A stretch of 64,000 nt of DNA from a virus (lineage: Duplodnaviria > Heunggongvirae > Uroviricota > Caudoviricetes > Schitoviridae), in IMG/VR virus record IMGVR_UViG_2974642717_000001, positions 14,146 to 78,145 of that record; one strand, 5' to 3'. The notes below the pieces were generated by a model that made no database searches, was not told where the DNA came from, and was given only the letters and a program-made list of their open reading frames with translations. Below are positions 1 through 20,281 of the stretch, piece after piece. Numbering within the stretch: the stretch's first letter is position 1; every line of letters begins with the position of its first letter. Made by a program: the position numbers and the translations under genes.

Positions 1-13
1 TGAAACTCAAGAA

Positions 14-2131: not shown

Positions 2132-2140
2132 ACCGAATAA

Positions 2141-2159: not shown

Positions 2160-2194
2160 TATCACTTATTAACTCAGACCCCTAGGAGACACCT

Positions 2195-3648: not shown

Positions 3649-3659
3649 GGAGATAAAAC

Positions 3660-5108: not shown

Positions 5109-5125
5109 TCAGAGCTAATTAAGTG

Positions 5126-5149
5126 AGACCTCCTACGGGAGGTCTTTTG
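5126..5149 (+). terminator. rho-independent terminator after capsid gene
   Basis: AGACCTCC-tacg-GGAGGTCT followed by TTTT; a second GGGGTATACCCC palindrome follows at 5155-5166. Confidence 0.7.
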
Positions 5150-5194
5150 ACTGAGGGGTATACCCCCATAAACTTTTAAATAGAGAGATACACT

Positions 5195-5746
5195 ATGACA
5201 GACACAAACGATGATCTAAAACTACAAGCACTAAAAAAGAAAGCAGATATGCTGGGCCTCACATACCACCCTTCAATCGGTATGGATAAACTAAAAGCTA
5301 AGGTGGACGAAAAGATGGCAGAGAACCCTGATAAAGATCCTGTAAGTGATGGTGCTATTAAAGTACTAGACCAAGGCGGTGAAGCAGAGATGAAACGTCG
5401 AGAAGCTTCTAAACTTGTACGTGTAGTTATTAACTCACGAGATCCAAATAAGAAAGACTGGCCGGGTGAGATCTTCTCTGTAGGTAACCGTACTGCTGGC
5501 TTCTATAAGAAGTACATTCCTTATGGTACTGAGTGGCACGTACCACAAATCATTTTCAACACCATTCGAGATAAAAAGGTACAAGTATTTGTATCATCTA
5601 CAGACTCGAAAGGTCGTAAGATTAAAGTTCCTAAGATTATCCCTGCATACTCTTATGAAGTTCTTAACCCACTAACAGCAGAAGAGCTAGCTGACCTAGC
5701 TAAAGCACAACAAGCTTCTGGCCGTTTAGAGGATGGTAACGAGTAA
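5195..5746 (+). CDS. virion-module hypothetical protein, 183 aa
   Basis: ORF with SD; lies between the capsid terminator and the next structural gene. Confidence 0.45.
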   Translation: MTDTNDDLKLQALKKKADMLGLTYHPSIGMDKLKAKVDEKMAENPDKDPVSDGAIKVLDQGGEAEMKRREASKLVRVVINSRDPNKKDWPGEIFSVGNRTAGFYKKYIPYGTEWHVPQIIFNTIRDKKVQVFVSSTDSKGRKIKVPKIIPAYSYEVLNPLTAEELADLAKAQQASGRLEDGNE

Positions 5747-6480
5747 TGGCAGATGTAGACTTCTCTGAGATTACAGATGGATGCCCTGAAGGTCAGGGCG
5801 TTTTTGATCAGATGATGAAATCCGTCAAGGCGCATTTAAAAGAAGAGTATGATGCACAACGTATCCGAGGTTCTGAATATACTCAGGTTTACCTCAATGG
5901 TCTCCAAACTGCTATGGGTCAATCGATTCAATGGCAACTAGGTGCAGAGATCGCTAAGAACCAAGCACTACTAATTAGTGCTCAGATTGAAGGTCAAGAG
6001 AAGCAGAATGAATTGATTGCTGCTCAAGTTGCTCTAGCAGAACAACAACTACTTAACCTACAACAAGACCTTGTTAACGCTAAGGTACAAGAAGACATTC
6101 TTACTACTCAGAATGATACAGCTGAATACCAATTAGCTAATATCCTTCCTGCACAGAAAGAGAAGACAGAAAGTGAAGCTGCTATCCTTGCTCAGAAGAT
6201 TATTACTGAGGAAGCTCAAACCAAGGATGTTACTTCTCAAGGACCAGTTACTGGTATCATGGGTCGTCAACGTGATCTATACGAGAATCAAGCTGAAGGC
6301 TTTATTCGAGATGGTGAGCAGAAAGCTGCACGTATCCTATCTGATGTGTGGGGCATTAACTACAGTGCCGATGTAGCTGCAGAAGCTACACCAGATAACG
6401 TAGCTAAAACCAACATGGATAGTATGTTAGGTGAGTTACGATCTAAGGCAGGATTAGGCAACTATACGCCATTCCCTTAG
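5746..6480 (+). CDS. coiled-coil structural protein, 244 aa
   Basis: Q/E/A-rich heptad-like sequence; ATGA overlap with the upstream gene. Confidence 0.45.
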   Translation: MADVDFSEITDGCPEGQGVFDQMMKSVKAHLKEEYDAQRIRGSEYTQVYLNGLQTAMGQSIQWQLGAEIAKNQALLISAQIEGQEKQNELIAAQVALAEQQLLNLQQDLVNAKVQEDILTTQNDTAEYQLANILPAQKEKTESEAAILAQKIITEEAQTKDVTSQGPVTGIMGRQRDLYENQAEGFIRDGEQKAARILSDVWGINYSADVAAEATPDNVAKTNMDSMLGELRSKAGLGNYTPFP

Positions 6481-6511
6481 AATGGTAATTAAAGGTCGAT
6501 GAACTAATGGA

Positions 6512-6537
6512 GGAAGGGGGCGAAAGCCTCCTTTTTT
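6512..6537 (+). terminator. rho-independent terminator (GGGGGC-GAAA-GCCTCC + T6)
   Basis: GNRA-type tetraloop hairpin with one G-U wobble, followed by TTTTTT. Confidence 0.6.
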
Positions 6538-6543
6538 ATATCT

Positions 6544-8565
6544 ATGGGAAAATACGCAACATCGGTAGCCTCATATGCTACCAACATAAATGATATAACA
6601 GGGAATCCCACTAAGAACACGATTGCATCTATATGTCATAAAAGAGAAGTAGGCGATCATAAGTCGGTTAACTCCTCACTACTTGAGTCCATGCATAACG
6701 GATTGGCCGTAAAGGTTAACTCTGGTATTAAGTATGGCAGGGAGGAGTATGTATACGGACTGCCTGAAGGTTATATAGTAACAGCAGATATTGATGTCAG
6801 TGTGGTCCAAGAAGTAATATCCGAAGAGTTAGGTACTGAGGTCAACATTGATGTTGCTTTTATAGCTGAACCTGATCCAGATTACTTTGCTCGGTGGCAT
6901 TCGTATAATAACTGGGGTGGTGATCCTTTAACCGGTCACATGACTGATCCTCCTGTTGATGGGGATGATGTTAGAATTGTAGAGTCTGCATGGACTAGCT
7001 ACGGTCAACTAGAAATTCTGGTTGGTTACGAGCAAAGTGACGGTCAATTCAAGAATGAAACATTCATTGTATGGCCCCCAACAAATGTAAACCTAAAAGA
7101 GCAGTACTACCACGTAATATACACCCGAGAAGATACCATCTTCCCTACTAGTGACTTTTGGATTTACGAGTTAGGTACCGATACCATTCCTGAACTCGAG
7201 GTGGAAGTGGAGGATACCCTAGACAGCCCTTTCTTACCTGTGGTTCCAGTAAGGGAGAACAATATAAACTTAGGTCCTGAATCCAAAGATGGTGAATTTA
7301 TATATGATGAGGATGGTCAGAAGATAGTACCGGATACAGAGCTATACCGAACCAGTGTAAAGCTATGTGAGAAGTTTAGGATAGGTTTTGATGATATATC
7401 CCGTGAGATTACCGGCAACCCCGATGTAGCTAGTATTGACCACGCGTACATTATTTTTGGTATCGATATACGCTCGGACACTAAACCAGGTAAGACCTTC
7501 TTATTCGACTTCTTTGAGAAGTTAGCCTTTAGTACTATAGGCGCTTCCGAGATTGAAGTAAGGGATGCTCAGTACTATAAGATACGTATAATATTTGATT
7601 CATGTACATCTATGGATGAGGTGGGCGACTTAGACGAAGTAGAGGTCGAATATTCAGGCAATACTATGTACCTACGTGCCCCACTAGAACCGGGTATGTA
7701 CCGTGAAATTACCGTAGTAAATCCAATACACGTTAACTATGTGTACAAGGCCCATACTGTCGTAACCACATTGGCAGATAGTGCGGATGAAGAAAACTAT
7801 AATTTCATTGTACCCTTAGAGTATTTTATTGCTCAGTCTGCAGGATCTTTGTTTGATAGGGAAAGGTTGTATGTGGAGGCAGCTAAGATAGTATTTAACT
7901 GCTATGAAAGGAAGAAACTTAAGTGGTACCAGAGTGGGTGGTTTAAGATAGTTTTGGTTGTGGTAGCTATCGTGGTAACAGTATTTACAGGGGCAGGTGG
8001 TGCCTTCGTGGCAGCACTAGAGGCAGGTATAACAGCTACTGTATTGTACTTGGTACAAGCAGTCTTAATATCTACTCTAATAAAGTATGGCTTCCAGATG
8101 CTGGTGGATGTGTTGGGAGTAGAAATAGGTATATTATTAGCTGTAATAGCCGCTGTAGCGTCTTTCATGGTAGGTGATACAACTGGCATACTTAGCGCAG
8201 AAAACCTTATGACAGCGTCCTCAGGCTTTATAGTGGGAGCAGATGCTTCCCTATCAGCAGACATGGAAAAGTTAGCTAAGGAGATGGCAGCATGGACAGA
8301 TGAAGCTCAGAGATTAGATGACGAGTTGAATGAAGCTTTTGAAGAGCTAGATACAGACACTTTCTTTAATGTATATGACTTCATCAATGCAGGTAACATA
8401 TTCGTACCTAATGAGGTTCCTGAAGAATACTTCAATAGAACCATTCATACAGGTAACATTGGTGTAGGTACTCTGTCTGTACCTGAGAACTATGTAGACA
8501 ATGCTTTGACGTTACCTACAGTTAGCCGCTTTATGGGGTATGAGGATACAGAGGATGGCGTTTAG
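6544..8565 (+). CDS. virion-module protein with four C-terminal transmembrane helices; codon usage foreign to its neighbours
   Basis: 673 aa. Hydrophobic stretches at aa ~455-540 (FKIVLVVVAIVVTVF..., ITATVLYLVQAVLISTLI..., IGILLAVIAAVASFMVG). Frequent ATA, AGG/AGA and GGG/GGA codons that are almost absent from adjacent late genes. Confidence 0.5.
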   Translation: MGKYATSVASYATNINDITGNPTKNTIASICHKREVGDHKSVNSSLLESMHNGLAVKVNSGIKYGREEYVYGLPEGYIVTADIDVSVVQEVISEELGTEVNIDVAFIAEPDPDYFARWHSYNNWGGDPLTGHMTDPPVDGDDVRIVESAWTSYGQLEILVGYEQSDGQFKNETFIVWPPTNVNLKEQYYHVIYTREDTIFPTSDFWIYELGTDTIPELEVEVEDTLDSPFLPVVPVRENNINLGPESKDGEFIYDEDGQKIVPDTELYRTSVKLCEKFRIGFDDISREITGNPDVASIDHAYIIFGIDIRSDTKPGKTFLFDFFEKLAFSTIGASEIEVRDAQYYKIRIIFDSCTSMDEVGDLDEVEVEYSGNTMYLRAPLEPGMYREITVVNPIHVNYVYKAHTVVTTLADSADEENYNFIVPLEYFIAQSAGSLFDRERLYVEAAKIVFNCYERKKLKWYQSGWFKIVLVVVAIVVTVFTGAGGAFVAALEAGITATVLYLVQAVLISTLIKYGFQMLVDVLGVEIGILLAVIAAVASFMVGDTTGILSAENLMTASSGFIVGADASLSADMEKLAKEMAAWTDEAQRLDDELNEAFEELDTDTFFNVYDFINAGNIFVPNEVPEEYFNRTIHTGNIGVGTLSVPENYVDNALTLPTVSRFMGYEDTEDGV

Positions 8566-8636
8566 AAGGTATACAGGTTAGAATCTACTACTTAACTAGT
8601 TAACTAATGTAATACAACAACTCATGAGGAAATAAT

Positions 8637-9326
8637 ATGGCAGATACAAATAATGGATTCTTTGGTGGTGTCTCTAACTGGTGGGATCAAAACTTTGTCC
8701 AACCTACAGAGGGTGCTTACCAAGGTCTCCCGGGGGTAACTCCAGCATATAAGAATAGTACGGGTGTAATCACCCCTAATGGCGCCGCTACTCCAGTAGC
8801 TGGTGGTTTTCAACCAATTGTTAATAGCAACACAGCACAGGTAGACAACTGGACACCACGTAACAATAACTTTGCTGCACCGCAAACTGCAAACTCTGTA
8901 TCTCCGGGTACACAGCCAGCACTGTTTGCACCACAGACACAAGGTGGTATTGCTACCCCGGGTACAGTGGGAACTGATCCAAGCATCTTCCAAGCTATTG
9001 GCAATCATACCGACGGTTCTTGGGTAGGTAATCCTAACATTGCAAGTGTAGGTACTAACCCTCAACAGGCAAGCTTCTTAAGTGGAGTGGGTGATACATT
9101 GAGCGGCGGTTGGGATGCTATCGGTGGAATGCAGGGACTGTCCCAAGGACTAGGTGCACTGTCGGGTATTGGTCAAACTTATATGGGCTTCCAACAGTTG
9201 GGTCTAGCAGAAGATCAATTCAACTTTACGCGTAATGCATGGCAACAGGATTACGATATGCGTCTAGCAGATTACAATCGTCAGGTATCTCGTCAGGAAG
9301 ACCGTGATGCTGCGTTAGCTCGATAA
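8637..9326 (+). CDS. Gly/Thr/Pro/Gln-rich low-complexity virion protein, 229 aa
   Basis: ORF with SD GAGGAAAT; low-complexity composition typical of internal or ejection proteins. Confidence 0.45.
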   Translation: MADTNNGFFGGVSNWWDQNFVQPTEGAYQGLPGVTPAYKNSTGVITPNGAATPVAGGFQPIVNSNTAQVDNWTPRNNNFAAPQTANSVSPGTQPALFAPQTQGGIATPGTVGTDPSIFQAIGNHTDGSWVGNPNIASVGTNPQQASFLSGVGDTLSGGWDAIGGMQGLSQGLGALSGIGQTYMGFQQLGLAEDQFNFTRNAWQQDYDMRLADYNRQVSRQEDRDAALAR

Positions 9327-9336
9327 GGAGGACATA

Positions 9337-10194
9337 ATGGCAATTACATGGCAATCAGTAAGTACACCTAACTTTAATGCGAGTAATAACTTAGCAGTTC
9401 AGGCAGGTAATACTATTACAGGTGGTATTGATCGTCTTGCTAAGTCAGCACAGGGAGTGGCTGACCGACAGAAGGCATCAACACACGCAGAGTTTCAACA
9501 TAACCTTTTAGACCTCAGTATGAATCCTGACTTGAATAAGAATGAGTTCTTGAGCCAAGCACTTCAAATGAGTAAAGAGAATAACCTTGATCCTAATCAG
9601 GCATTGAAGCAGATTGAGTCTATTCGTAATGTACGTAACACAGCAGAGCAGTTGGATGGTGGTCAGCAGTTAGAGTTTGATAACATGCAGAGTAACCTAG
9701 CTAACCTGCAACAGTTAGGGCAGCAGAACATTCAGGCACAGTTGGAAGCGTTTGACCAACGTAACCCTCAGGTACGTCAGACTGCACTAGATTTAAATAC
9801 GTTTGAAGCTGGTGGTGGTTTAGGTTCTATTTTGAATGAGATGTATGGGAGTATTGAGGGTACGGGTGACCGTGAGGAAACTTCAGATGTTTTCAACGAA
9901 GTACGTCAAGGATATGACAATGACTTTGTAGTTGCTCAGGCACTTCAAGAAGTAGGTCTAGGTGAGGTGGGTTTTATATTTGATAGTTCATTAATCAACT
10001 CGGAGAAGTTTAAGAGTGCTTTAAACTTCCACCAGAAACGTATGGATACGTACCAGAAGAATGCTGAAGCTCGGACTACTCTACAGAATGTACTTAGTAA
10101 CAAACTAAATACAGATCTGCAAAAAGGACGTAGTGACCTCGAAAAATGGAATCGTGATACTAAAGCGAGTAACTTACGTAGTTTTTCTTTCTAA
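9337..10194 (+). CDS. structural-module hypothetical protein, 285 aa
   Basis: ORF with SD AAGGAGGA; Q/N-rich. Confidence 0.45.
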   Translation: MAITWQSVSTPNFNASNNLAVQAGNTITGGIDRLAKSAQGVADRQKASTHAEFQHNLLDLSMNPDLNKNEFLSQALQMSKENNLDPNQALKQIESIRNVRNTAEQLDGGQQLEFDNMQSNLANLQQLGQQNIQAQLEAFDQRNPQVRQTALDLNTFEAGGGLGSILNEMYGSIEGTGDREETSDVFNEVRQGYDNDFVVAQALQEVGLGEVGFIFDSSLINSEKFKSALNFHQKRMDTYQKNAEARTTLQNVLSNKLNTDLQKGRSDLEKWNRDTKASNLRSFSF

Positions 10195-10246
10195 AAAAGC
10201 CATTATCCTCTAATATAGTCAGTTCTTAATTAAGAGGAAAAATACT

Positions 10247-13200
10247 ATGGCAAATATCTTTTATGGGGCCGATGCAGTTAATCAAGTTGAACTTGCGGAA
10301 GGCCCTCTTTCACCTATCGAGCGTGTGATCGTAGAGGAAGAAGGTTATGCTGATGCTCCGTACGCAGACACCAAGGGTATTACTACCACTGGGGTTGGTC
10401 AGACAGGTGACTACGCTAGCATGTCAGCTAAGGAAGCAATCGCAGACAAGACTCAACAGACACGTCAACTGATCCCAGCTTTTGATAATCTAGACGTAGA
10501 TACTCAAGCACAGTTGGTTTCAGCTATGTACCGTGGTGACCTAGGCCAAAGCCCTAAAGCACGTGCCCTATTTAATCAGGGTAAGTATGCTGAGGCGGCT
10601 GATGAGTTCCTAAACAATGACGAGTACAGAATAACTCAACACCCTGCCATCCAGAGACGTATGGAGCGTGTGGCTGATGCTATGCGTAACGCAGGAAATA
10701 CTCAGGAAGCTGCCGCAGAGTTTGAATTGCAGAACAACCCTGAAGTTACCCCTATTACTTCTCAAACCACTGTCCCTACAACAGGTGACAAGAAGATGGT
10801 TGAGCTAGAAGCAAAGAACACAGCCAAGATGGAAGAACTTGCAGTTAAGTCTGAGCAGAAGCAAATGAAAGCTGCGGGCATGACTGACGAGCAATTCAAC
10901 GCATTAGACCAATCTCTTGAGCAATACATCCAAGCAGGTGACCCGTCTGAGGCAGCCGCACGTGCAACATTCTACCTAGATGCACAACGTACACAGCAGG
11001 AGCTAAGTGCAGCAATCAATGCGCCTAAAGATGAGACAATCTTCCAAGACTTGAATAACCCTCTAGAGTTTGCAGGCAACACTCTATTATCTACAGCTAA
11101 CGCTATTGGTAATATCTTTGGTGGTTTGGCTTCTATCCCTTCAGAGATCCGTGCAGGTCTAAACTTATCTAATGTAAGTGCAGAAGACATGGCTATGTAC
11201 AACCAACTGCAAGGTCGTTCAGAAGCTGTATGGACTGATGAAGAATACAAATGGTACCAAGATAATCAAGATGCTGTTGCAGATATCCAGAAAGCTGAAG
11301 AACAGTTTGCTGTAAGTGATGCAATCAGCGGTGTAACTGGTGTACTTGAACCATATATCAATAGTGAATTAGGTGAAGACTTCGTAGCCGAAGGTAAAGA
11401 CATCTATGATGATGCCCTAGCAGGTAACTCATCTGCTGGTGAGATCGTTAATGGTCTTACTAACCTGTTCATTAATAATCCGGGTGCACTAACACAGACT
11501 ACGGTTGAATCACTTCCTTATATGATTGCAGCGGCATACAACATGCCTATGACAATGGCGTCAGGTTGGGCAAACAACCAGTCAGAAGCTATTCAAGCAT
11601 TCGAAGAAGAGAACGGTACACTTCCAACAGAGAAAGACCTAGCTAAGATCACTGCTCTTACTGGTGCTCAAGCATTAGTAGATATGGCAGGTGACCGTCT
11701 AGTAACCGGTGGTGCAGCAAACCTTAAGAAGTCTGTACAGGCTTTAACAGGTAAGAAAGTAGCAGCTAAAGGTGTAGGCGCAGCAACAGGTCGAGCAGCT
11801 GTATCAGCAGCCGGTGAGTTTGCGGCAGAAGGTGGTGCAGATGTACTAGGCCAATTAGCGGCAACAGCCGGTGAAGGTGACGTAGATGTAGGCCAAGCAG
11901 TTGGTACCGGTTTACTTGGTGCAGGCTCTGGCGGTGCTACCTCTATTGCGGTAGACGCTCCACAGGTTGTAGCGGATGCAGGTAAAGCAACAGCTAAGAC
12001 AGCACAGACAGCTACTACTAAAGTAAAAGAAGTTAAGACTAGTAAGACTTACAAAGATGCTGCTAAGACTAATGACCCCTCTGTATTGCCTAAACAAGGC
12101 GATAAAGGTTATGACGCTAAGCAGGATGTAGAAGCACGAACTGCTATGCTGGAGTCAGGTGCTCTAGAAGAATCTGTAGCTAAAGAGTCTTATAACCAAG
12201 TTATCAAAGATAACAATGCTCGTATTAAAGAGTTCCAAGAACTTAAAGCTAAATCTGATGCTGGTGACACGTCGGTTAATACCCGTGCACGTGAAGTATT
12301 TGCAGAGATCAAAGCTATTAAGCCTATTGTTGCTCGAGCTAAAGCAACACGTGCCCCTAAGAATGTACAAGCACAGGCTACTAATCTAGCAACAGCTACG
12401 ACTAACAACACGAACACAGCAGCGGCTGTTAATACTGTTCTTGGTTCTATGGCTCAAGATCCTCAAGCTATTCCAGTTGAGACTGTAAAACAGATTCTTG
12501 ATAACGAGTCTCTGAACCTTACTGCATTCCAACGTGCACGTATGAACGCTAACCTTACTACACGTACTGCAGAAGTGAGTCTTGATGACGTAAGTCGTGA
12601 GATCATCCAAGGTAGTTCAGCTAACATGGGTGTTCGTCAGTACGTAGCTGAATCACTTGCAGCAGTGGAGATTGAAGATACAGATACAGCACAGTCGTTG
12701 CTTACTGGTCTACAAGCATTCCGTTCTAGTCAAGTTAAGAAGCTAAACCGTGAAGGTAACACAGCTCGATTCACTGAAAACGTGACTAAAGAGATTCGTT
12801 ACATGGATGCAGCTATTAATGAAATCCGAATTGCACTTGGAGGTACAACTGATGCTGATACTACTATTAACGATACTGTGGCTACTGATGATGTTAGCGA
12901 TAGTGTGGATGGAGAAAATGTAGATGGTGATATTACAACTGATAATGCTGACACTGCTAGTAGCGATACTACTGTCCCTACCGAGGGAGTAGCCGAGCAA
13001 CAAGCTTCGGCTCCGTCCGAAGCGCAGGTTGCGGAGGATACGACTACTACACTTTCACCTCTTGCTGAATCTTTGCCAGCTCCTTTGGAACTTCCAGAAG
13101 ATGCTGAGATTTCTGCTGAGGACTTACACGTAGATGCTCTAATCGAGGAAGCACAAGTGCTACTTGCCGAGGGAACTACATACGATCAAACAATTGAAGC

Positions 13201-16200
13201 AATTGAACAACGTTTCGGTAAAGAGACTGCTGACTTTGTTGCTGATGGTTTGGAGTCTGAACAGGCTGAAAGCCAAGGTACTCTAGGTGAGCAACTTACT
13301 CGATCTCTAACAGAAGCTCCTGAAGAAGTAGCTTACTCTGTTGATCTGGATGCAGTTGAGAAAGTAGACGAACGCCTAACCAACCTAATTACTTCAGCTG
13401 GTTTGGCTCAATCTAGTCCACATCTGAACGATGCATTAGAAGATGTTAAAGCATCAATCCGTGCTGGCGCTACAGTAGCAGCATCAATTAAAGAGATTGT
13501 TCCTGCTTATACAGGTAAGCCGGTTAAACGTCTGAATGCTTCAGTACGTAAACTACAAGCTGACATCAACCGCGTACCTACTAACGTAGATAGCGGCATG
13601 ACAGTCGAAGAGCGTAAGTCGTGGCTACAACAAGTGAACTGGGTAAAAGAGTTCTTTACTCCAACTAATCCAGACAACATCTTACAGACTAATGGCAACT
13701 TGTTTAACCAAGCTAGCTCTCGTCGTCAGATTGAGGAGTACATTGGACGACCTCTTACAGATGGTGAACTAGAACAGTTAATCGATTACAACACTCGTCG
13801 AAAGTCTTTAGCTACGGCACTAGATAAAGTATTTAGTACTGAAGGTTACACAGACAACTACGCTCTAGGCGAACGCGATGCTGAAGGTAAACTGAAAGCA
13901 CCCAAGTACAACGATATGATGCAGTACCTTGCTGAAGACGGTGAATTACCTGCTGGAGTTAAAGAAGCAATCATCTCAGCTGCGTATAACTGGATTGCTA
14001 CATCTGCAGGTGACACGCTGTTTAATGAGGACTCAGCAATGAATAGTATTCTTGGTGAGACTAATGGTGATGCACACATCCACCGCGATGTACGTAACAT
14101 CCTGCAAGGTGTTGGTACAACACGTACTACAATCCTACAGTCATTAGGCAAAGACGTAATGAGCACGATTGGTATCTCTGGTACACGTAATGCACCGGGC
14201 AACGTTAACTCTAAGTTAGAGACTTCACTTGGCCAATTTACTCTTGAAGTTATGAAGCAAGCAGGTGTTGTTAAACAAACACAACTGTCGAAAGAAGATA
14301 TGGCAACGCTTAACCGTTTCTCTAAAGACGATGCAGGTGTTAGCCCTAACATCCGATTCATCAAAGCAGCTACAAACAAGGAAGGTAAACTACACACTAA
14401 ATTGAATGATGTGGTTCAACTTACTAAAGAAGCTCGTATCTCTGCACGTGAAACAGGTACACCGGCAGCATGGACACAGATGTTTGGTATTCAATCTCGT
14501 CAGGTATTCCCTGAGTTTGAGAAGCCTACCGAAGTAGCAACTAAAGTAACTGGCACTAACCGTGATGTACCACGCAAGACACAAGAAGTTCTAGCTAAGC
14601 ATAATGCACGCGAACACTTCCTTAAAGGTGATCTTACAGCTATGGCTCAAACAATGGCTGAGGAAGCTTCTGATGAGTTTATGAAGTTACTTGGTGTAAC
14701 AGACCCTGATTCAGTTCACGTCTCTCGTCGTGATGCACAGGACGCAGATAACCGTAATATCGAACGTGTATGGGGTAACTTTGATGAGTTCTACCGTCAG
14801 AACCTAGAAGTAGGTCTTGATCAACCACACTACTACACACATAACGTGTGGAAGAATGGTCGTTTTGGTATTGCACAGAATATGGTTAACCCTCAGGGTG
14901 ACAAGATTCACCGCGCATTCATTAAACAGAAAGGTTGGGATGTAGAGCTAGATCCAAACAACGTAGAACAGATGTCACAGTTCTGGGCTGCTATGGATGA
15001 AGAGTTAGGTTTTGATAATCGTAATGACATGCCCCGTTATATACAAGAAGCTGCGAACATTGTACGTGGATTCCTTGAGACAGATACATTCGAAGATGGT
15101 GATATCGAGACTCTATCAGCAATCATCCGTAATGAGCTTGGTGGTGCTTCTAACACAGCAATGCTGAAACTAGATGCAATCATGCATATCGCACGTCATG
15201 ACATCGCGGTAGATACTAATGAAACTTTCCAATCAGAAATGTTCATGGAAATCGATGGTAAGACAAACGGTATCATTATCTCACTGATTCAGTATGGTGC
15301 AGCAGCAACAGGTATTGATTTGCTTAATTTAGTTGGTATGGGTGGTCTATACGGAGAAGGGGATATCCGTAACTTTAATGACTTTAAGAAGGCAGGTAAT
15401 CTAGATGCGTACAACAAGTTAGCTAAAGATTGGATTAAGAATCTAAAACTTACTTACACAGGGGCGGACACAACAGCAATGTTCAAACTGTTTGGTCTAA
15501 TTGATGAGAAAGGTAATGCAGTACCTAAACAGGAACGTAACCTAGCGAAGAACCCACTAATGGTAATCTTCTATGGTTCAGGTGAGAACGCGGTTAAGCA
15601 ATCTCTAGGTTCAGCATTCACTGAAGTGGTAATGGATAAATTGGAAGCAGCTGGTCAAGCCGGCGATCTTCAAGCGTACAATGACATCCGTGACGAACTG
15701 AACAAGATTGTTCCTCATGCACTTCCAGAAGTAACACAGGCGAGCCAAATCTTAGAAACAGATCTAAGTAATGCTACCCTTGCTAAACTGGAAGAGACAG
15801 TAGGGGAAGTGTTCGGTTCAACTGCATACGCAGAAGTTCAGGCTCAGTACCCAGAGTACATGAAGCGTCGTGACCAAGTTCGTGATGTATATGACTCAAT
15901 GTACCGTCGCCATGCAGCGCTACGTGAGAAGTTAATCGAGAAGCGTAAAGCAGAGCTAGTAGCACTAGGTCAATTGTCTAACTTAGAGGATATGGCTAAG
16001 CACGAGTACCGCGCTATTGATGATCGAATTGCAGCAGTCGGTCCACACTTTAACTCTCACTCTACTAAGGGTGGTCCAGTTGAAGAGTCGATTGATCCAA
16101 GCAAGACTAAGACAGAGGTTGATACTAAGACACGTGTACAAGCTAAATACGGTAACAAAGAACAGAAGGTAACTTCTGAAGGTACTAAGCGTGTACCGGC

Positions 16201-19200
16201 AGCACCGGGTGTTGGTGCAGGTCCAATGAGTATTCACAGTGCAGATGCTTCAATCATGCGTGAAACGTATGATAACGACATTGACTCTATTGGTGTTCAC
16301 GATGCTAACTTAATCGGTATTACCGATGCTAAGAAGCTGGGACAAGTACAGAACAAAGCTTTTGAGACTGTTACACGTGAGACGAGTGTACTAGTAGAAA
16401 CTCTTAAAGCATTCCGTAACTCTGACCAGACTTACACATCAATCATCAAGGAAGAAGGTTTAAACCGTACTGAATTAGATAGTGCGGCAAATGGTTTAGA
16501 TACTCCAATTGAACCTACTGTTATCCGTGAACGTCTACTTGATCTAGTAGATTCTACTAAAGCAGCAGGCCGAGTGAAGGATGAGATGTGGCAGAACACT
16601 CGTTATGTACATCAATACGCTGACCATAATGGCGTCTCAGCGCATGAGTCTAACACTAAGAAGTGGGAACGCTTCCAGTACGTTAAGTCTGGTGATGCTA
16701 AGTCTGTAGCTGCGAATGCAGCGGAAGACGTTGTTACAGAATCATTAGGATCTAGTCAAGGTATCGACTTTGCAGAGGCAAGTGATTCTAACAACTATGA
16801 TAACTCAGTAGACGTTGACCTAACTAACGTTGGTGAAGTATTCGAATCATTGCCGGCAACAGGCGGTAAGATTGAGAACGATGTACATAAAGAGACTCTA
16901 CGTGGAATGGTCTTCAACCTAACCAACAAACTGTCAGTACCGTTTGGTTTCCATATGCGTGAGAAAGAAGATGTTCCTAACTACGGTGTAGCAACACAGT
17001 CTGACATTTACCTAACTACGTTAGCTAATGGCGCACCTGAAACATCAGGCATCTTGGCTCAAGGTATTCGTATGAGTCCAGAAGAGATCATGGCACACGA
17101 ACTGAATCACTTAGTATTTGCAGAAGGTTTTAAAACAGATTCACGTTACCGTCGTCAATTTGAACGTATCTTCAACGCTGTGAAAGCTGAGGCTACCCCG
17201 GATATCTTCCTAGAGAACCCGGTTAACCCTACGGCCGCAGAGCAAGAAGCTGCTCAGAAGCATTTTGACTACATCTTCAACAACAAAGATGGTAACAGCC
17301 TTGAAGAGTTTGGTGCATTTGCTACTACTAATGAGAAGCTAATCGACTTTACCAACACAATCACAGTTAAGCCGGAGAAGTGGGTACAAGGTGATAGCCC
17401 TTACGAGATTATGGTTAACATCCTTTCCCGTATTGTGGATGCTTTCAATGCTCGTATCTTACACCTTTCGGATATTAGCAACGATAAGAAGCTATTCGCT
17501 CTTATGGATGGTATGAACCGTATTACAGGTAAGAAGCAGAACGGTATTATTGAAGCAGCGCAGAGTGCAGCAGCTATGGCACAACAAGTAATGCAGATTC
17601 CTTCAGCGATGATTGAAGGGGCAGCACGTAAGTTGGCGGCAGTACCAGTGTTCAAAGACAGTCGTTACGCAACAGTACGTATACTGTCGGAAGCAGTACG
17701 TAAAGGTAACTCTGGTCGTGACCTGAACCAAGCAATGTTAGATCACCTTAACTTGATGCGCGACATCACTACCGAGAATAAGTATGGGTGGTTCCAATCT
17801 ACAGCAGATGAGATGATTGGTCGTACAGTTGATAACGCTACATTCCGTGATATGGCACGTACTTCTAACGTAATGCTAGATATGGGCCGTAAGCGTGCTA
17901 AGGATGCAATGACGAAACACATTCAAAACTCTTTCACTACCCCGGTAGAAGATAGCGAATGGAATGCAATCAACAAAGTAATCCTTAAACTAGACATCGA
18001 CTCTATTTCAGATATTGGTTTAGAGAAGGTAGGTCAATTGATGAATAGTGATGCTGCACTTGAAACTGAGATTGCAGGTCTAGAGCAATTGCTTAAGACT
18101 TTCAACAACTACAACTTCTACCGCCGTCATGCAGAGAACCTAGGTTACTTCATGAATACTGGCCGTAGTATGGAAGCAGCAGCACTGTTGAATGCTCACA
18201 ATATCTCTAAAGGATACGGTGATACTAAGATGAATGTTACTGATGCAACCGCAGCTCGAGTTGAACCAATCGTAGATAAACTAGCAACGCTTTACGGTAT
18301 CAAGCATGCAGATGCTACTAACCGAAATGCAATTGCTGACCTAATCAGTCGCGATGTAGACGGTATCAATGCAGTAATTGATGCTCACCACACACTGAAA
18401 GAAGGTTCAAAGGATCAGTTCGCTTCTACACAGGAACAGAAGACACTATCTCTAAAAGGTTGGACTAAGGAAGAGTACAATGCAGCAACTGGTGTTGAAG
18501 TAGCAACTCTGGATAAACGTGAAGAACTAGAGTCTCAAGGTTACATCATGCAAGAGAATCCGATTCCTCGTGATAGTAAAGACCCTGTTCAAACTGACAT
18601 GTATATGTTCGTGGCTCCTGATGGTGCACTTGCTCCATACATGGCACAGATTGCATCTCTTACTAGTAATGTGGCTAAAGGTTCTGACACAGTGAAGGTT
18701 GAAGCTCAGTACGGTGCAGATAACCCATACGATTCAGGGTTGGTTGATGTAGGTATCATCAATAAAGGTAAAGAGGCTGCACAAGCACAGGTTCACCTGA
18801 ACCCTGTTAGTCCGGGCCCAAGTGGTAACAAGATGATTCCAATCATTTCACCGAAGGACGGTAAAGTAGTGGGTTGGCGTTATATGATGACCGAAGCTAA
18901 TCGTGATGAGATTCTTCAAAAGGATAACAACGCAGCTAACGTTCTTGGCGCCATGGCCGGTAACATCGTAGATAAGATTAAAACACAGGAAGTTAATAAA
19001 GAGTTGGTAACAGCAGCTAAAGCTCAATACGATGCAGACCTAGCTAAAGGTCGTGGTAATGCATATGTTGAGATTAGTGAGGAAGCAGAAGGTGAGTTGC
19101 TTGAGATTTGGCGTAGAATGCCTGAGGAAATGCAGAAAGAGGTTGTGAGTACGTTTGGTTCTCCGCGCATGATGGTACGTTCTGACTTGGTAGACCAGAT

Positions 19201-20281
19201 GTTCGGTTACCGTAAACCAAGTATCAATGAGTTGTTTGAGAAAGATCCTGCTGCTCGTCGTTACTGGGAGCACATGGTTGTTCAGGTACTATCTACTGTA
19301 TTACCAAAGGATACAGTACAGAAGGTTCGTAAAGCTGAAAACATCATTCAAGCAGTTGTGCAAGAGACTAAGGATATTGTTGTAGTACGTTCAATCGTAG
19401 TACCACTATTCAACGTATTCTCAAACACAATGTTCTTGATGCTTCAAGGTATCGATCCTGTAACTGCAATCCGTGGACAGGTAGAAGCGTACGTAGCCGG
19501 TAACCGTCTTGTAGCAGACATTCGTAAGAAAGATGAGCTAACTATCCAAGTAGCAGCTAAGTCTATTCAAGCGGCTACACGTACACGATTACTAGGTGAA
19601 TTAGCAGCAGTTGAAAGACGTATTGCTATCAACCCTACTAATGCTTCTTACCAAGCGGGTATGATGCCATCGGTAGTAGATGATGCAGAGACTAACGTAA
19701 ATATCTCTAACTCTCTACGTGGTCAGACTCAACGTAAGGTGAGTGCAGGTGTTGATAAAGTATTCGGTCGTATGCCGGCTCTAGTGCCAGATACAATCAA
19801 AGGTGTTCTAGGTTTGCCAGACAGTACAGCTTACCGCGCAATGAATAACTTTGTACGTAACTCTGACTTTATCGCTCGTCACGTTGTAGCTAACCATTGG
19901 GCAGCTCAACAAGCGAAAGAGCAAGGTCGTGCAGTAACGGAAGCACAGATGAATGAGCACTATGCAGAAGCAACTGAACTGTTTGTTAACTTTGATGCTC
20001 CTACTCACCGAGGCACACAGTACGCGAATGATATCGGTATTGCATGGTTCACTAAGTACTTGTTCCGTGTAAACAGGGCAGTGGCTAGAACATTCCTTAA
20101 GAACCCAGTTAAAGTATCTCTGGCAATGCTTGGTATGGAACTAGCAGGGTTTGATTCATTCTCTGATACTCCAATCGGTTCAGCTATGGTAGCAGGTCGT
20201 GATCCACTATCGACACTAGGTGACCCAGTTACCTCAGCTATCTCGGCACTAAGCCTAACAGTACCGGGCCAAGTCCTCTAA
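10247..20281 (+). CDS. virion-encapsidated RNA polymerase (N4 gp50-like vRNAP) with N-terminal T4-lysozyme-like domain
   Basis: 3344 aa. T7-like RNAP motifs: A 'EIDGKTNGIIIS' (~15251), B 'RNLAKNPLMVIFYGSGE' (~15536-15580), C 'IGVHDANL' (~16298). N-terminal ~150 aa resemble GH24/T4 lysozyme (EGYADAPYADTKGITTTGVGQ; later ...YAEAADEFLNN...QHPAIQRRMERV). Confidence 0.85.
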   Translation: MANIFYGADAVNQVELAEGPLSPIERVIVEEEGYADAPYADTKGITTTGVGQTGDYASMSAKEAIADKTQQTRQLIPAFDNLDVDTQAQLVSAMYRGDLGQSPKARALFNQGKYAEAADEFLNNDEYRITQHPAIQRRMERVADAMRNAGNTQEAAAEFELQNNPEVTPITSQTTVPTTGDKKMVELEAKNTAKMEELAVKSEQKQMKAAGMTDEQFNALDQSLEQYIQAGDPSEAAARATFYLDAQRTQQELSAAINAPKDETIFQDLNNPLEFAGNTLLSTANAIGNIFGGLASIPSEIRAGLNLSNVSAEDMAMYNQLQGRSEAVWTDEEYKWYQDNQDAVADIQKAEEQFAVSDAISGVTGVLEPYINSELGEDFVAEGKDIYDDALAGNSSAGEIVNGLTNLFINNPGALTQTTVESLPYMIAAAYNMPMTMASGWANNQSEAIQAFEEENGTLPTEKDLAKITALTGAQALVDMAGDRLVTGGAANLKKSVQALTGKKVAAKGVGAATGRAAVSAAGEFAAEGGADVLGQLAATAGEGDVDVGQAVGTGLLGAGSGGATSIAVDAPQVVADAGKATAKTAQTATTKVKEVKTSKTYKDAAKTNDPSVLPKQGDKGYDAKQDVEARTAMLESGALEESVAKESYNQVIKDNNARIKEFQELKAKSDAGDTSVNTRAREVFAEIKAIKPIVARAKATRAPKNVQAQATNLATATTNNTNTAAAVNTVLGSMAQDPQAIPVETVKQILDNESLNLTAFQRARMNANLTTRTAEVSLDDVSREIIQGSSANMGVRQYVAESLAAVEIEDTDTAQSLLTGLQAFRSSQVKKLNREGNTARFTENVTKEIRYMDAAINEIRIALGGTTDADTTINDTVATDDVSDSVDGENVDGDITTDNADTASSDTTVPTEGVAEQQASAPSEAQVAEDTTTTLSPLAESLPAPLELPEDAEISAEDLHVDALIEEAQVLLAEGTTYDQTIEAIEQRFGKETADFVADGLESEQAESQGTLGEQLTRSLTEAPEEVAYSVDLDAVEKVDERLTNLITSAGLAQSSPHLNDALEDVKASIRAGATVAASIKEIVPAYTGKPVKRLNASVRKLQADINRVPTNVDSGMTVEERKSWLQQVNWVKEFFTPTNPDNILQTNGNLFNQASSRRQIEEYIGRPLTDGELEQLIDYNTRRKSLATALDKVFSTEGYTDNYALGERDAEGKLKAPKYNDMMQYLAEDGELPAGVKEAIISAAYNWIATSAGDTLFNEDSAMNSILGETNGDAHIHRDVRNILQGVGTTRTTILQSLGKDVMSTIGISGTRNAPGNVNSKLETSLGQFTLEVMKQAGVVKQTQLSKEDMATLNRFSKDDAGVSPNIRFIKAATNKEGKLHTKLNDVVQLTKEARISARETGTPAAWTQMFGIQSRQVFPEFEKPTEVATKVTGTNRDVPRKTQEVLAKHNAREHFLKGDLTAMAQTMAEEASDEFMKLLGVTDPDSVHVSRRDAQDADNRNIERVWGNFDEFYRQNLEVGLDQPHYYTHNVWKNGRFGIAQNMVNPQGDKIHRAFIKQKGWDVELDPNNVEQMSQFWAAMDEELGFDNRNDMPRYIQEAANIVRGFLETDTFEDGDIETLSAIIRNELGGASNTAMLKLDAIMHIARHDIAVDTNETFQSEMFMEIDGKTNGIIISLIQYGAAATGIDLLNLVGMGGLYGEGDIRNFNDFKKAGNLDAYNKLAKDWIKNLKLTYTGADTTAMFKLFGLIDEKGNAVPKQERNLAKNPLMVIFYGSGENAVKQSLGSAFTEVVMDKLEAAGQAGDLQAYNDIRDELNKIVPHALPEVTQASQILETDLSNATLAKLEETVGEVFGSTAYAEVQAQYPEYMKRRDQVRDVYDSMYRRHAALREKLIEKRKAELVALGQLSNLEDMAKHEYRAIDDRIAAVGPHFNSHSTKGGPVEESIDPSKTKTEVDTKTRVQAKYGNKEQKVTSEGTKRVPAAPGVGAGPMSIHSADASIMRETYDNDIDSIGVHDANLIGITDAKKLGQVQNKAFETVTRETSVLVETLKAFRNSDQTYTSIIKEEGLNRTELDSAANGLDTPIEPTVIRERLLDLVDSTKAAGRVKDEMWQNTRYVHQYADHNGVSAHESNTKKWERFQYVKSGDAKSVAANAAEDVVTESLGSSQGIDFAEASDSNNYDNSVDVDLTNVGEVFESLPATGGKIENDVHKETLRGMVFNLTNKLSVPFGFHMREKEDVPNYGVATQSDIYLTTLANGAPETSGILAQGIRMSPEEIMAHELNHLVFAEGFKTDSRYRRQFERIFNAVKAEATPDIFLENPVNPTAAEQEAAQKHFDYIFNNKDGNSLEEFGAFATTNEKLIDFTNTITVKPEKWVQGDSPYEIMVNILSRIVDAFNARILHLSDISNDKKLFALMDGMNRITGKKQNGIIEAAQSAAAMAQQVMQIPSAMIEGAARKLAAVPVFKDSRYATVRILSEAVRKGNSGRDLNQAMLDHLNLMRDITTENKYGWFQSTADEMIGRTVDNATFRDMARTSNVMLDMGRKRAKDAMTKHIQNSFTTPVEDSEWNAINKVILKLDIDSISDIGLEKVGQLMNSDAALETEIAGLEQLLKTFNNYNFYRRHAENLGYFMNTGRSMEAAALLNAHNISKGYGDTKMNVTDATAARVEPIVDKLATLYGIKHADATNRNAIADLISRDVDGINAVIDAHHTLKEGSKDQFASTQEQKTLSLKGWTKEEYNAATGVEVATLDKREELESQGYIMQENPIPRDSKDPVQTDMYMFVAPDGALAPYMAQIASLTSNVAKGSDTVKVEAQYGADNPYDSGLVDVGIINKGKEAAQAQVHLNPVSPGPSGNKMIPIISPKDGKVVGWRYMMTEANRDEILQKDNNAANVLGAMAGNIVDKIKTQEVNKELVTAAKAQYDADLAKGRGNAYVEISEEAEGELLEIWRRMPEEMQKEVVSTFGSPRMMVRSDLVDQMFGYRKPSINELFEKDPAARRYWEHMVVQVLSTVLPKDTVQKVRKAENIIQAVVQETKDIVVVRSIVVPLFNVFSNTMFLMLQGIDPVTAIRGQVEAYVAGNRLVADIRKKDELTIQVAAKSIQAATRTRLLGELAAVERRIAINPTNASYQAGMMPSVVDDAETNVNISNSLRGQTQRKVSAGVDKVFGRMPALVPDTIKGVLGLPDSTAYRAMNNFVRNSDFIARHVVANHWAAQQAKEQGRAVTEAQMNEHYAEATELFVNFDAPTHRGTQYANDIGIAWFTKYLFRVNRAVARTFLKNPVKVSLAMLGMELAGFDSFSDTPIGSAMVAGRDPLSTLGDPVTSAISALSLTVPGQVL

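What the first reader, a model, noticed from the sequence alone, without database searches (positions are those of the whole stretch)
6544..8565. Virion-module membrane protein with foreign codon usage
The 673-aa ORF between the coiled-coil structural gene and the Gly-rich protein uses ATA (Ile), AGG/AGA (Arg) and GGG/GGA (Gly) repeatedly. The flanking capsid, portal and vRNAP genes almost exclusively use ATC/ATT, CGT and GGT. Its C-terminal third has about four transmembrane helices. This is a strong signature of recent horizontal acquisition of a membrane-inserting virion/ejection or superinfection-exclusion component. A similar but weaker bias is visible in the +-strand island gene 41555..42475.
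Basis: seen in the sequence. Interest (0 to 1): 0.55.

Follow-up and report, generated by a model that had tools for sequence, protein, structure and literature searches.

The report
Single-copy phage tail plug, unbiased codons
The odd-looking gene is the conserved tail plug of N4-like phages, and its rare codons reflect near-neutral codon usage seen in this gene across the whole family, not a recent foreign acquisition.

Summary
The window is Vibrio phage vB_VspP_pVa5, an N4-like phage of the Schitoviridae. The raw observation holds. ORF 6544-8565 (673 aa) uses ATA for 29/52 Ile codons, against 8% elsewhere (p=2e-17). It uses AGR for 11/20 Arg codons, against 13% (p=1e-5). It has a hydrophobic block at aa 462-550.

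The horizontal-transfer interpretation does not hold. The ORF is the ortholog of N4 gp53 / DEV gp74, the single-copy tail plug that corks the 12-mer tail tube. Support comes from sequence hits to PDB 9ZE4 and 9YFT, a fold match to 9ZE4, and conserved synteny. The 'TM helices' align to the published hydrophobic knot of the plug.

The gene is weakly biased, not differently biased (Nc 52.7, third-position composition close to intergenic). Relatives at 94%, 83% and 71% identity show the same pattern. Across 53 dereplicated Schitoviridae lineages, the plug gene is less codon-adapted than its late-gene neighbours in 46 (p=4e-8).

Relaxed translational selection on the only one-per-virion structural protein is the best explanation. 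A tail-module swap is visible, but in relative 1.097.O, not in pVa5.

By-products: a truncated GenBank start, and a conserved terminator-like hairpin with an apparently hairpin-bridged Shine-Dalgarno before the plug gene.

The parts
6544..8565 (+). Tail plug gene, ortholog of N4 gp53 / DEV gp74 (673 aa). The true start is 6544; GenBank annotates window 6691.
   Evidence: PHROG 2220 E=1.3e-155. PDB sequence hits 9ZE4_M E=9.5e-37 and 9YFT Gp53 E=6e-23. Foldseek hit to 9ZE4_M E=9e-24. M1 and G2 are invariant in 10 homologs. The GenBank CDS starts at record 20836, which is window 6691.
6694..7923 (+). Globular alpha/beta core of the plug (aa ~50-460). In N4 and DEV this part sits outside the tube and contacts the receptor-binding protein.
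   Evidence: AF2 pLDDT 75-91 over these residues. The fold match to the DEV plug covers 539 columns. The role is inferred from PMC13434306 and PMC12892993.
7915..8193 (+). KWYQSGWFK motif plus hydrophobic helices (aa 458-550).
   Evidence: Kyte-Doolittle segments at 462-550. These residues align to N4 gp53 ~659-745, which includes the published knot residues 670-716. W461, Y462, G465 and F467 are invariant.
8194..8562 (+). C-terminal helical tail (aa 551-673). It probably lies in the tail lumen, like the last ~160 aa of N4 gp53.
   Evidence: It aligns to the C-termini of 9ZE4_M and 9YFT. The AF2 model is low confidence and helical here. The location is inferred from PMC13434306.
6509..6543 (+). 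gp54|gp53 junction: GGAGG (6509-6513), a 10-bp stem with GAAA loop (6512-6535) and a U-run (6532-6537), ending 7 nt before the ATG. It looks like an intrinsic terminator and probably carries a hairpin-bridged Shine-Dalgarno.
   Evidence: Read directly from the sequence. The fold centroid is -15.3 kcal/mol. There is no SD at canonical spacing (+0.2 kcal/mol versus -6 to -12 for neighbouring genes). The hairpin is conserved in relatives, with a G.U pair changing to A-U. The consensus scanner did not flag it.
5746..6480 (+). Tail tube gene (N4 gp54-like, 12 copies per virion). Its C-terminal two-thirds (from ~6008) co-vary with the plug.
   Evidence: PHROG 2050 virion structural protein. Synteny. 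N-terminal 87 aa are 86% identical to 1.097.O and the C-terminal part 53%. ATA 0/16 and AGR 0/7.
8637..9326 (+). gp52-like ejection protein (outer-membrane complex in N4). Its N-terminal ~100 aa co-vary with the plug.
   Evidence: Synteny. N-terminal part is 23% identical to 1.097.O and the C-terminal part 76%. ATA 0/8 and AGR 0/7. The role comes from PMC13434306.
6008..8937 (+). Tail-tip cassette with no nucleotide similarity to 1.097.O, although the flanks are 79-87% identical.
   Evidence: blastn breakpoints at 6008 and 8937. Protein identity matrix.
9337..10194 (+). gp51-like ejection protein (context).
   Evidence: Synteny. PHROG 20377.
10247..20281 (+). Virion RNA polymerase (context, 3344 aa).
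   Evidence: Annotation of the record. ATA 3/177.

Best explanation
Shown: ORF 6544-8565 encodes the Schitoviridae tail plug, the ortholog of N4 gp53 and DEV gp74.

From the published N4 and DEV structures, one copy of this protein seals the distal end of the dodecameric gp54 tail tube. A globular core sits outside the tube and is held by the receptor-binding protein. A knot of short hydrophobic helices corks the lumen, and the C-terminus extends into the lumen next to gp52. Receptor binding displaces the plug and releases gp52, gp51, the vRNAP and the DNA. The 'TM helices' of the pVa5 protein are this cork segment.

Shown: the unusual codons are not a foreign signature. The gene has almost no codon bias. 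It lies about three-quarters of the way from late-gene usage to the neutral expectation. The same gene-specific loss of bias recurs in most Schitoviridae lineages.

Inferred: because the plug is the only structural protein needed once per virion (MCP in hundreds of copies, tube x12, gp51/gp52 at least 10, vRNAP 4+-1), translational selection on its synonymous sites is weakest, so they drift to mutational equilibrium. In a phage whose other late genes are strongly biased, that shows up as many ATA, AGR and NCC codons.

Inferred: expression is further set by a terminator-like hairpin directly upstream, which read-through transcripts must cross. Its stem appears to bridge a displaced Shine-Dalgarno to the start codon.
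For: Identity:
- PHROG 2220 E=1.3e-155.
- phmmer hits to 9ZE4_M 'N4 gp53-like protein' at 9.5e-37 and to 9YFT Gp53 at 6e-23, with the hydrophobic block aligned to N4 residues around 670-716.
- The AF2 core matches only 9ZE4_M (E=9e-24, prob 1.0).
- The gene order MCP-gp55-gp54-gp53-gp52-gp51-vRNAP is conserved in 9 annotated phages.
- Plug role and 12:6:1 / 12:1 stoichiometry come from PMC13434306 and PMC12892993.

Codons:
- Nc is 52.7, against 34.8 for the MCP and 41.3 for the vRNAP. Third-position composition is close to intergenic.
- The neutrality index is 0.26 for pVa5. Across 53 clusters the median is 0.79; it is below 1 in 49 and never below 0. Nc is higher than in neighbours in 46 of 53 (p=2e-8).
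- The leave-one-out adaptation z-score is negative in 46 of 53 clusters (p=4e-8), and the plug is the lowest late gene in 21. The gp55, gp54, gp51 and vRNAP positions are positive.
- The signature persists in relatives at 94%, 83% and 71% identity.
- ATA positions are not conserved beyond chance (13 observed versus 10 expected). Synonymous-codon retention is the lowest of all late genes (0.58 versus 0.63-0.78).
- The co-varying parts of gp54 and gp52, the gp67-like adaptor and the 149-aa tail protein have essentially no ATA or AGR codons.
- pVa5 has no tRNA genes.
Against: - Copy number alone does not order all genes. The vRNAP (4+-1 copies) is well adapted, which needs an extra argument: selection for accuracy and processivity in a 3344-codon gene (established theory, not tested here).
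- About 7 of 53 lineages show no deficit.
- pVa5's ATA fraction (0.56) is marginally above a trinucleotide-based neutral value of 0.42 (p=0.03).
- The 562-aa tail fibre is also rich in rare codons although fibres are usually multi-copy.
- No expression or proteomic data exist for pVa5. Virion presence and single-copy status are transferred from N4 and DEV.
- The neutral model uses only a few kb of intergenic sequence per locus.
Confidence: 0.62

Rival explanations
1. One reading: the gene was recently acquired by pVa5 from a donor with different codon usage, as a membrane-inserting virion or superinfection-exclusion protein.
For: The ATA and AGR excess is very strong. The gene lies inside a block that is demonstrably exchangeable in this phage group.
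Against: It is a core gene in conserved synteny, found in 259 phage records. pVa5-1.150.O identity of 83% equals that of the flanks. The same bias is present in relatives at 94%, 83% and 71% identity. GC is 0.417 versus 0.433, Nc is 52.7, so usage is unbiased, not differently biased. The adjacent co-varying gene parts lack the signature. All 28 database homologs are phage-sized-contig proteins of 624-909 aa.
Confidence: 0.04
2. Chronic mosaicism: tail-tip and tail-module alleles move so often between schitoviruses with different hosts and codon preferences that the plug never reaches the codon equilibrium of its current genome. The cause would be amelioration lag, not low expression.
For: There is a sharp cassette break at 6008-8937 against 1.097.O. 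1.150.O and 1.097.O are 92-99% identical in portal, gp57, MCP, gp55 and gp51, but 61/41/48% in gp54/gp53/gp52. The plug allele co-varies with the adaptor, the 149-aa protein and the 562-aa fibre. The fibre genes also carry rare codons. Host-recognition modules of schitoviruses are known to be exchanged (abstract of PMC10579305, seen).
Against: The other members of the same co-varying module (gp54 C-terminal part, gp52 N-terminal part, gp67-like adaptor, 149-aa protein) are well adapted. The plug's usage moves toward neutral, not toward another bias; the index is never below 0 and Nc is higher. The shift of gp53 GC3 away from the other late genes shows no systematic direction. The signature is stable through a vertically inherited series at 71-94% identity.
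Confidence: 0.14
3. Active attenuation: non-optimal codons are selected to keep synthesis of a hydrophobic, potentially membrane-toxic, single-copy protein low or slow, or to help co-translational folding of the knot. They would act together with the upstream terminator and the structured ribosome-binding site.
For: ATA at 0.56 exceeds the neutral estimates of 0.35-0.42 (p=0.002-0.03), and ATC is depleted (4/52). A terminator-like hairpin lies directly upstream in at least 30 of 53 lineages. The effect is specific to this gene family.
Against: At the whole-gene level no lineage goes beyond neutral (index never below 0). Rare-codon positions are not conserved between relatives. There is no reproducible clustering in the hydrophobic segment (0.16 versus 0.20, p=0.41) or along the ORF. 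pVa5 was picked as the extreme case, so its marginal p-value is inflated.
Confidence: 0.18

Closest known systems
Coliphage N4 gp53 tail plug (PDB 9YFT, tail-gating complex; PMC13434306)
   Same: The position between the tail tube gene and gp52 is the same. The invariant MG N-terminus, the KWYQSG(I/W)FK motif and the following hydrophobic helices that form the cork are shared. The C-terminal helical tail is shared. The sequence E-value is 6e-23 over aa 384-652.
   Different: pVa5 is 673 aa against 885 aa. The N4-specific insertions (alignment columns ~300-440 and ~580-690, presumably the beta-feather) are absent. Only about 22% identity. The partner that holds the plug must differ, because pVa5 has no obvious gp65 sheath homolog in the region examined. 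N4 has no hairpin between gp54 and gp53.
Pseudomonas phage DEV gp74 tail plug (PDB 9ZE4 chain M; PMC12892993)
   Same: It is the best sequence match (E=9.5e-37) and the only fold match (E=9e-24). It lacks the beta-feather, as pVa5 does. The litunavirus LIT1 (740-aa gp53-like protein) has a terminator-like hairpin between the tube and plug genes.
   Different: Only 15-23% identity. In LIT1 the hairpin is followed by an ordinary SD, whereas pVa5 has the SD 5' of the hairpin. Codon deficit is weak in LIT1: only GGR is affected, z=+0.35.
Expression-linked codon bias in phage and bacterial genes (weak bias in low-expression genes)
   Same: Bias falls from the MCP (Nc 34.8), through 12-copy proteins (about 45), to the single-copy plug (52.7). 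Synonymous sites of the plug turn over fastest.
   Different: The contrast here lies inside one co-transcribed structural module and is conserved across a virus family. The vRNAP does not follow simple copy-number ordering.
Hairpin-bridged (discontinuous) ribosome-binding sites of T4 genes 38 and 25 (recalled from the literature, not checked here)
   Same: The order is SD motif, then a stable stem-loop, then a short spacer, then AUG. Folding would bring the SD to canonical distance.
   Different: Here the bridging hairpin also looks like an intrinsic terminator with a U-tract. No experimental evidence exists.

Membership tests
Schitoviridae tail plug (N4 gp53 / DEV gp74; PHROG 2220) | Significant sequence homology to the structurally characterised plugs | tested here: met
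   9ZE4_M E=9.5e-37 and 9YFT Gp53 E=6e-23. PHROG 2220 E=1.3e-155.
Schitoviridae tail plug (N4 gp53 / DEV gp74; PHROG 2220) | [quoted passage not shown] | tested here: met
   The gene order is conserved in pVa5 and nine annotated relatives, including N4-type 3HA13 and LIT1.
Schitoviridae tail plug (N4 gp53 / DEV gp74; PHROG 2220) | Globular core with the plug fold | tested here: met
   The AF2 core (pLDDT 75-91, aa 50-460) matches only 9ZE4_M (E=9e-24, TM 0.47 normalised to the target). 9YFT was not in the Foldseek library.
Schitoviridae tail plug (N4 gp53 / DEV gp74; PHROG 2220) | C-terminal hydrophobic helices that form the cork (N4 residues 670-716) | tested here: met
   pVa5 aa 458-540 align to N4 ~659-745. 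Kyte-Doolittle segments lie at 462-550.
Schitoviridae tail plug (N4 gp53 / DEV gp74; PHROG 2220) | N-terminal contribution to the knot (N4 residues 29-56) | tested here: inconclusive
   The N-terminus is conserved (M1 and G2 invariant). The sequence match here is weak, and pLDDT is below 50 for aa 20-39.
Schitoviridae tail plug (N4 gp53 / DEV gp74; PHROG 2220) | Present in the virion as one copy sealing a 12-mer tube | not testable with these tools
   Known for N4 (LC-MS, cryo-EM) and DEV. There is no virion proteome or structure for pVa5.
Recently acquired horizontal-transfer island | Base composition or a directional codon bias different from the host genome | tested here: not met
   GC is 0.417 versus 0.433. 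Nc is 52.7, so usage is unbiased. Third-position composition is close to intergenic. The neutrality index is 0.26, between late-gene usage and neutral.
Recently acquired horizontal-transfer island | Absent from, or discordantly related in, the closest relatives | tested here: not met
   The gene is present in all relatives. pVa5-1.150.O identity is 83%, like the flanks at 82-96%. Discordance exists for 1.097.O, not for pVa5.
Integral membrane / superinfection-exclusion protein | Hydrophobic helices that span a membrane in the functional state | tested here: inconclusive
   Helix-length hydrophobic segments exist. In N4 the homologous segment is a knot inside the tail tube, not in a membrane. 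Whether it inserts into a membrane after unplugging is unknown.
Intrinsic (Rho-independent) terminator | GC-rich stem-loop followed directly by a U-tract, located between transcription units | tested here: met
   Window 6512-6537: 10-bp stem, GAAA loop, U6. Comparable hairpins occur in at least 30 of 53 lineages. Termination activity itself is not testable here, and the consensus scanner did not list it.
Hairpin-bridged Shine-Dalgarno | SD motif 5' of a stable hairpin, with the AUG a few nt 3' of it and no SD in between | tested here: met
   In 14 clusters the SD lies in the 5' flank (median -5.5 kcal/mol) with none downstream. In 16 clusters the pattern is reversed (p=3e-5 and 3e-6). The effect on initiation is not testable here.

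The most novel reading that the evidence does not exclude
Schitoviruses may actively hold the plug at one copy per virion with a conserved three-part control module. The first part is a leaky terminator after the tail tube gene. The second is a ribosome-binding site that works only when that terminator hairpin folds in read-through mRNA. The third is selected non-optimal codons that slow or limit translation of a hydrophobic, knot-forming protein. On this reading the rare codons are functional and not just drift.
Probability: 0.18. Interest if true: 0.5.

Novelty: new member of a known kind. Interest (0 to 1): 0.3.

Why it matters
It removes a false horizontal-transfer call and gives a functional name (tail plug) to a gene that GenBank labels only 'N4 gp53 protein / transmembrane protein' and annotates with a truncated start.

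It also makes a general point for genome scans. Inside a strongly biased late operon, a gene with merely neutral codon usage looks 'foreign', so codon anomaly alone is not evidence of transfer.

The family-wide result is modest but new as far as the searches here show. The one-per-virion plug is the least codon-adapted late gene in most Schitoviridae, so codon bias may be usable as a rough read-out of virion stoichiometry.

The co-varying block (tube C-terminus, plug, gp52 N-terminus, adaptor and fibre) gives evolutionary support to the contacts seen in the N4 and DEV tail-gating structures. It also points to the 562-aa fibre as the likely plug-holding receptor-binding protein of pVa5.

Tried and rejected
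- tRNA compensation: there are no tRNA genes in the window or in the first 24.5 kb of the record, in agreement with the genome paper.
- Pfam: no hit for the plug or its neighbours.
- Position-specific rare codons (programmed pauses): ATA/ATA coincidence between pVa5 and 1.150.O is 13 against 10 expected. Rejected.
- ATA concentration in the hydrophobic cork: 8/9 in pVa5, but not reproduced over 41 clusters (0.16 versus 0.20, p=0.41). Rejected.
- 'No SD, therefore weak initiation': withdrawn after one search showed a conserved SD on the 5' side of the hairpin.
- Consensus terminator scan: it did not list the 6512-6537 hairpin, nor the terminator the record annotates after the MCP. The terminator reading therefore rests on the sequence, the fold and conservation.
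- LUZ7 ONT-cappable-seq preprint: it reports stepwise read-through termination in late cassettes, but I could not map a site to the tube/plug junction.
- Literature search for earlier reports of this codon feature in Schitoviridae: nothing relevant found. This is not proof of absence.
- I briefly believed loci fetched in parallel were lost. The files simply hold several records each.
Full report
**Origin and observation**

The window is Vibrio phage vB_VspP_pVa5 (KX889068.2, Schitoviridae, Pontosvirinae). Window position 6544 is record position 20689.

The ORF exists as described: 6544..8565 on the + strand, 673 aa. The codon counts are:

| Codon class | This ORF | Other genes in the window | Fisher p |
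|---|---|---|---|
| ATA (Ile) | 29/52 | 65/853 | 2e-17 |
| AGA+AGG (Arg) | 11/20 | 89/711 | 1e-5 |
| GGA+GGG (Gly) | 11/47 | 182/1038 | 0.33 |

The Gly result is raised only against the late module (0.24 versus 0.11). The rare codons are spread evenly along the ORF. A hydrophobic block with 3-4 helix-length segments lies at aa 462-550.

The secondary gene 41555..42475 is only a weakly biased gene of unknown function: ATA 2/20, Nc 55.9, PHROGs of unknown function.

**What the gene is**

The record calls it 'N4 gp53 protein'. It matches PHROG 2220 at E=1.3e-155 and has no Pfam hit. tblastn finds homologs in 259 phage records, which by organism name are N4-like phages of Vibrio, Pseudomonas, Klebsiella, Salmonella, Escherichia, Roseobacter-group hosts and others.

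In nine annotated relatives the gene order is MCP, gp55, gp54, gp53, gp52, gp51, vRNAP.

Two 2026 papers define the family:
- In N4, gp53 is a single-copy tail plug closing the 12-mer gp54 tail tube (12:6:1 mismatch with the sheath). It has a globular core outside the tube. A 'hydrophobic knot' made of residues 29-56 and 670-716 corks the tube, and the last ~160 residues lie in the lumen. It is present in virions by LC-MS (PMC13434306).
- In DEV the homolog gp74 plays the same role and is held by the gp56-gp55-gp54 receptor-binding fibre (PMC12892993).

The pVa5 protein hits both solved chains: 9ZE4_M at E=9.5e-37 and 9YFT Gp53 at E=6e-23. Its KWYQSGWFK motif and hydrophobic helices align to N4 residues ~659-745.

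An AlphaFold2 model built on 28 homologs is confident for aa ~50-460. Its only significant PDB match is 9ZE4_M (E=9e-24, probability 1.0).

Whether they ever enter a membrane is unknown.

M1 and G2 are invariant in ten homologs. The 6544 start is therefore correct, and the GenBank CDS (window 6691) lacks 49 codons. The genome paper states that starts were curated by looking for Shine-Dalgarno sequences, which may explain the miss.

**Is the codon usage foreign?**

No. Four lines of evidence agree.

- The gene is nearly unbiased. Nc is 52.7, against 34.8 for the MCP, 41.3 for the vRNAP and about 45 for portal, tube and gp52.
- Third-position A/C/G/T is .28/.19/.19/.34, and intergenic composition is .28/.21/.20/.31.
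- GC is ordinary, 0.417 versus 0.433.
- On a scale where 1 is the usage of the other late genes and 0 is the neutral expectation from intergenic composition, pVa5 gp53 scores 0.26.

**Is it private to pVa5?**

No. The same signature appears in relatives:

| Relative | Protein identity to pVa5 | ATA/Ile in the plug gene |
|---|---|---|
| Logan contig L101 | 94% | 26/52 |
| 1.150.O | 83% | 23/54 |
| Logan contig L102 | 71% | 25/53 |

Independent alleles in 1.097.O, D505, N4-type 3HA13 and several IMG/VR contigs also show an ATA, AGR or GGR excess.

I then analysed 86 loci from GenBank phages and IMG/VR, collapsed to 53 clusters at 60% plug identity. For each late gene I computed a leave-one-out adaptation score against the other late-strand genes of its own locus:
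- The plug is below the mean in 46 of 53 clusters (binomial p=4e-8, median z=-1.25).
- It is the lowest late gene in 21 clusters and among the two lowest in 31.
- The control positions are not low: gp55 (median z +0.85), gp54 (+0.49), gp52 (+0.10), gp51 (+0.31) and vRNAP (+0.86).

The neutrality index has a median of 0.79. It is below 1 in 49 of 53 clusters and never below 0. Nc exceeds that of the neighbours in 46 of 53 clusters (p=2e-8). pVa5 belongs to the most extreme cluster.

**Is there any horizontal transfer here?**

Against 1.097.O, nucleotide similarity runs at 87% up to window 6008, vanishes until 8937, then resumes at about 79-81%.

1.150.O and 1.097.O are 92-99% identical in portal, gp57, MCP, gp55 and gp51. 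They are only 61%, 41% and 48% identical in gp54, gp53 and gp52. The breaks fall inside gp54 (aa ~87) and gp52 (aa ~100).

The plug allele co-varies with the rest of the tail:

| Protein | pVa5 vs 1.150.O | vs 1.097.O |
|---|---|---|
| gp67-like adaptor | 94% | 57% |
| 149-aa protein | 93% | 64% |
| 562-aa fibre | 84% | 40% |

Replication genes stay at 94-97%.

pVa5 and 1.150.O share one allele, at a divergence that matches their flanks. The simplest history is a tail-module exchange in the 1.097.O lineage and vertical descent in pVa5.

The other members of the co-varying module carry essentially no ATA or AGR codons. These are the gp54 C-terminal part, the gp52 N-terminal part, the adaptor and the 149-aa protein. 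The codon signature therefore follows the gene, not the transfer history. That is the strongest argument against both the recent-transfer reading and the chronic-mosaicism reading.

**Why this gene?**

Published copy numbers are: tube x12, gp51 and gp52 at least 10, vRNAP 4+-1, plug x1.

Relaxed translational selection on the least-needed structural protein fits several results:
- Usage is near neutral.
- Synonymous-codon retention against 1.150.O is the lowest of all late genes (0.58 versus 0.63-0.78).
- ATA sites interchange freely (13 coincident against 10 expected).

Active selection for slow codons is not excluded. ATA at 0.56 is slightly above a trinucleotide-based neutral value of 0.42 (p=0.03). 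But the index never goes below zero. Rare codons are not position-conserved. The apparent ATA concentration in the cork (8/9) does not replicate across 41 clusters.

The good adaptation of the 4-copy vRNAP needs an added length and accuracy argument that I did not test. The rare-codon-rich 562-aa fibre would fit the copy-number idea if it is a DEV-like single lateral fibre, but that is speculation.

**Junction upstream**

Window 6509-6543 reads GGAGG, then a 10-bp stem with a GAAA loop, then U6, then 6 nt, then the ATG at 6544. The fold centroid is -15.3 kcal/mol. There is no SD at canonical spacing.

Using strict criteria, 30 of 53 clusters have a hairpin plus T-tract in front of the plug gene:

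| Design | Clusters | SD energy in the 12-nt 5' flank of the stem (median) | SD energy between hairpin and ATG (median) |
|---|---|---|---|
| Stem ends 10 nt or less from the ATG (includes pVa5) | 14 | -5.5 kcal/mol | none (+2.25) |
| Stem ends 17 nt or more from the ATG | 16 | none (+0.4) | -6.95 kcal/mol |

The two contrasts give Mann-Whitney p=3e-5 and 3e-6.

This looks like an intrinsic terminator separating the high-copy head and tube genes from the low-copy plug and ejection genes. In the pVa5 type, the hairpin also appears to bridge a displaced SD to the start codon, as I recall for T4 genes 38 and 25. All of this is inference from sequence. The simple scanner did not flag the site.

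**Verdict**

The interpretation as recent horizontal acquisition is not supported. The gene is an ordinary, conserved member of a recently characterised family. Its codon usage is best read as relaxed, near-neutral usage that characterises the plug gene across Schitoviridae.

The novelty is limited to three things: the family-wide pattern, the delineation of the co-varying tail-tip module, and the junction architecture.

Noticed in passing
window 6544-6690 (record 20689-20835): The GenBank CDS for gp53 starts at window 6691 (624 aa). The invariant MG N-terminus and full-length alignment of homologs show the true start is 6544 (673 aa). The annotated starts of the 1.097.O (MERGGRKLSLFLY-MGKY) and JSF3 (MDNHPFFI-MGLF) homologs instead appear too long, because they read through the upstream hairpin.
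   Followed up: yes
window 6509-6543; also L001-L009 and IMG/VR loci just upstream of the gp53 homolog: A terminator-like hairpin plus U-tract lies between the tail tube and plug genes in at least 30 of 53 lineages. There are two mutually exclusive layouts: the SD lies 5' of the hairpin (14 clusters, including pVa5), or an ordinary SD lies 3' of it (16 clusters). This suggests a hairpin-bridged ribosome-binding site nested in a terminator.
   Followed up: partly
window 6008-8937; L002 19453-22375: A sharp mosaic block covers the tail tube C-terminal two-thirds, the plug, and the gp52 N-terminal ~100 aa. It has no nucleotide similarity to 1.097.O although the flanks are 79-87% identical. The breakpoints fall inside genes, which implies these three parts form one co-adapted unit at the tail tip.
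   Followed up: yes
L022 10719-12407 (record coordinates, upstream of the window); L001 8317-10011; L002 9131-11566: The 562-aa 'phage tail fiber' co-varies with the plug allele (84% versus 40%). It is the only other tail-module gene rich in ATA and AGR (8/28 and 10/15). It is a candidate for the plug-holding receptor-binding protein of pVa5.
   Followed up: partly
window 33216-33872 (-): This is the lowest codon-adaptation gene of the window (ATA 9/17, GGR 8/16). It is an HNH endonuclease (PHROG 19902, E=4e-91) lying next to a 657-aa DNA polymerase ORF (34834-36807). It is a more plausible genuinely mobile gene than gp53.
   Followed up: partly
window 41555-42475 (+): This + strand gene sits inside the - strand early/middle region. 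It is of unknown function (PHROGs 23862 and 32924) and weakly biased (Nc 55.9), but ATA is not enriched (2/20). By analogy with LUZ7, such opposite-strand genes may be late-transcribed.
   Followed up: partly
L001 4879-7626: In 1.150.O a 915-aa tail protein is as rich in rare codons as the plug (ATA 24/64, AGR 22/34). It shares only its N-terminal ~260 aa with the pVa5 726-aa and 771-aa tail proteins, which indicates domain-level shuffling of tail fibres.
   Followed up: no
window 1-20000: The consensus terminator scan missed two sites: the 6512-6537 hairpin, and the terminator that the GenBank record annotates after the MCP (record 19261-19301, window ~5116-5156). Negative results from that scan should not be taken as absence.
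   Followed up: no
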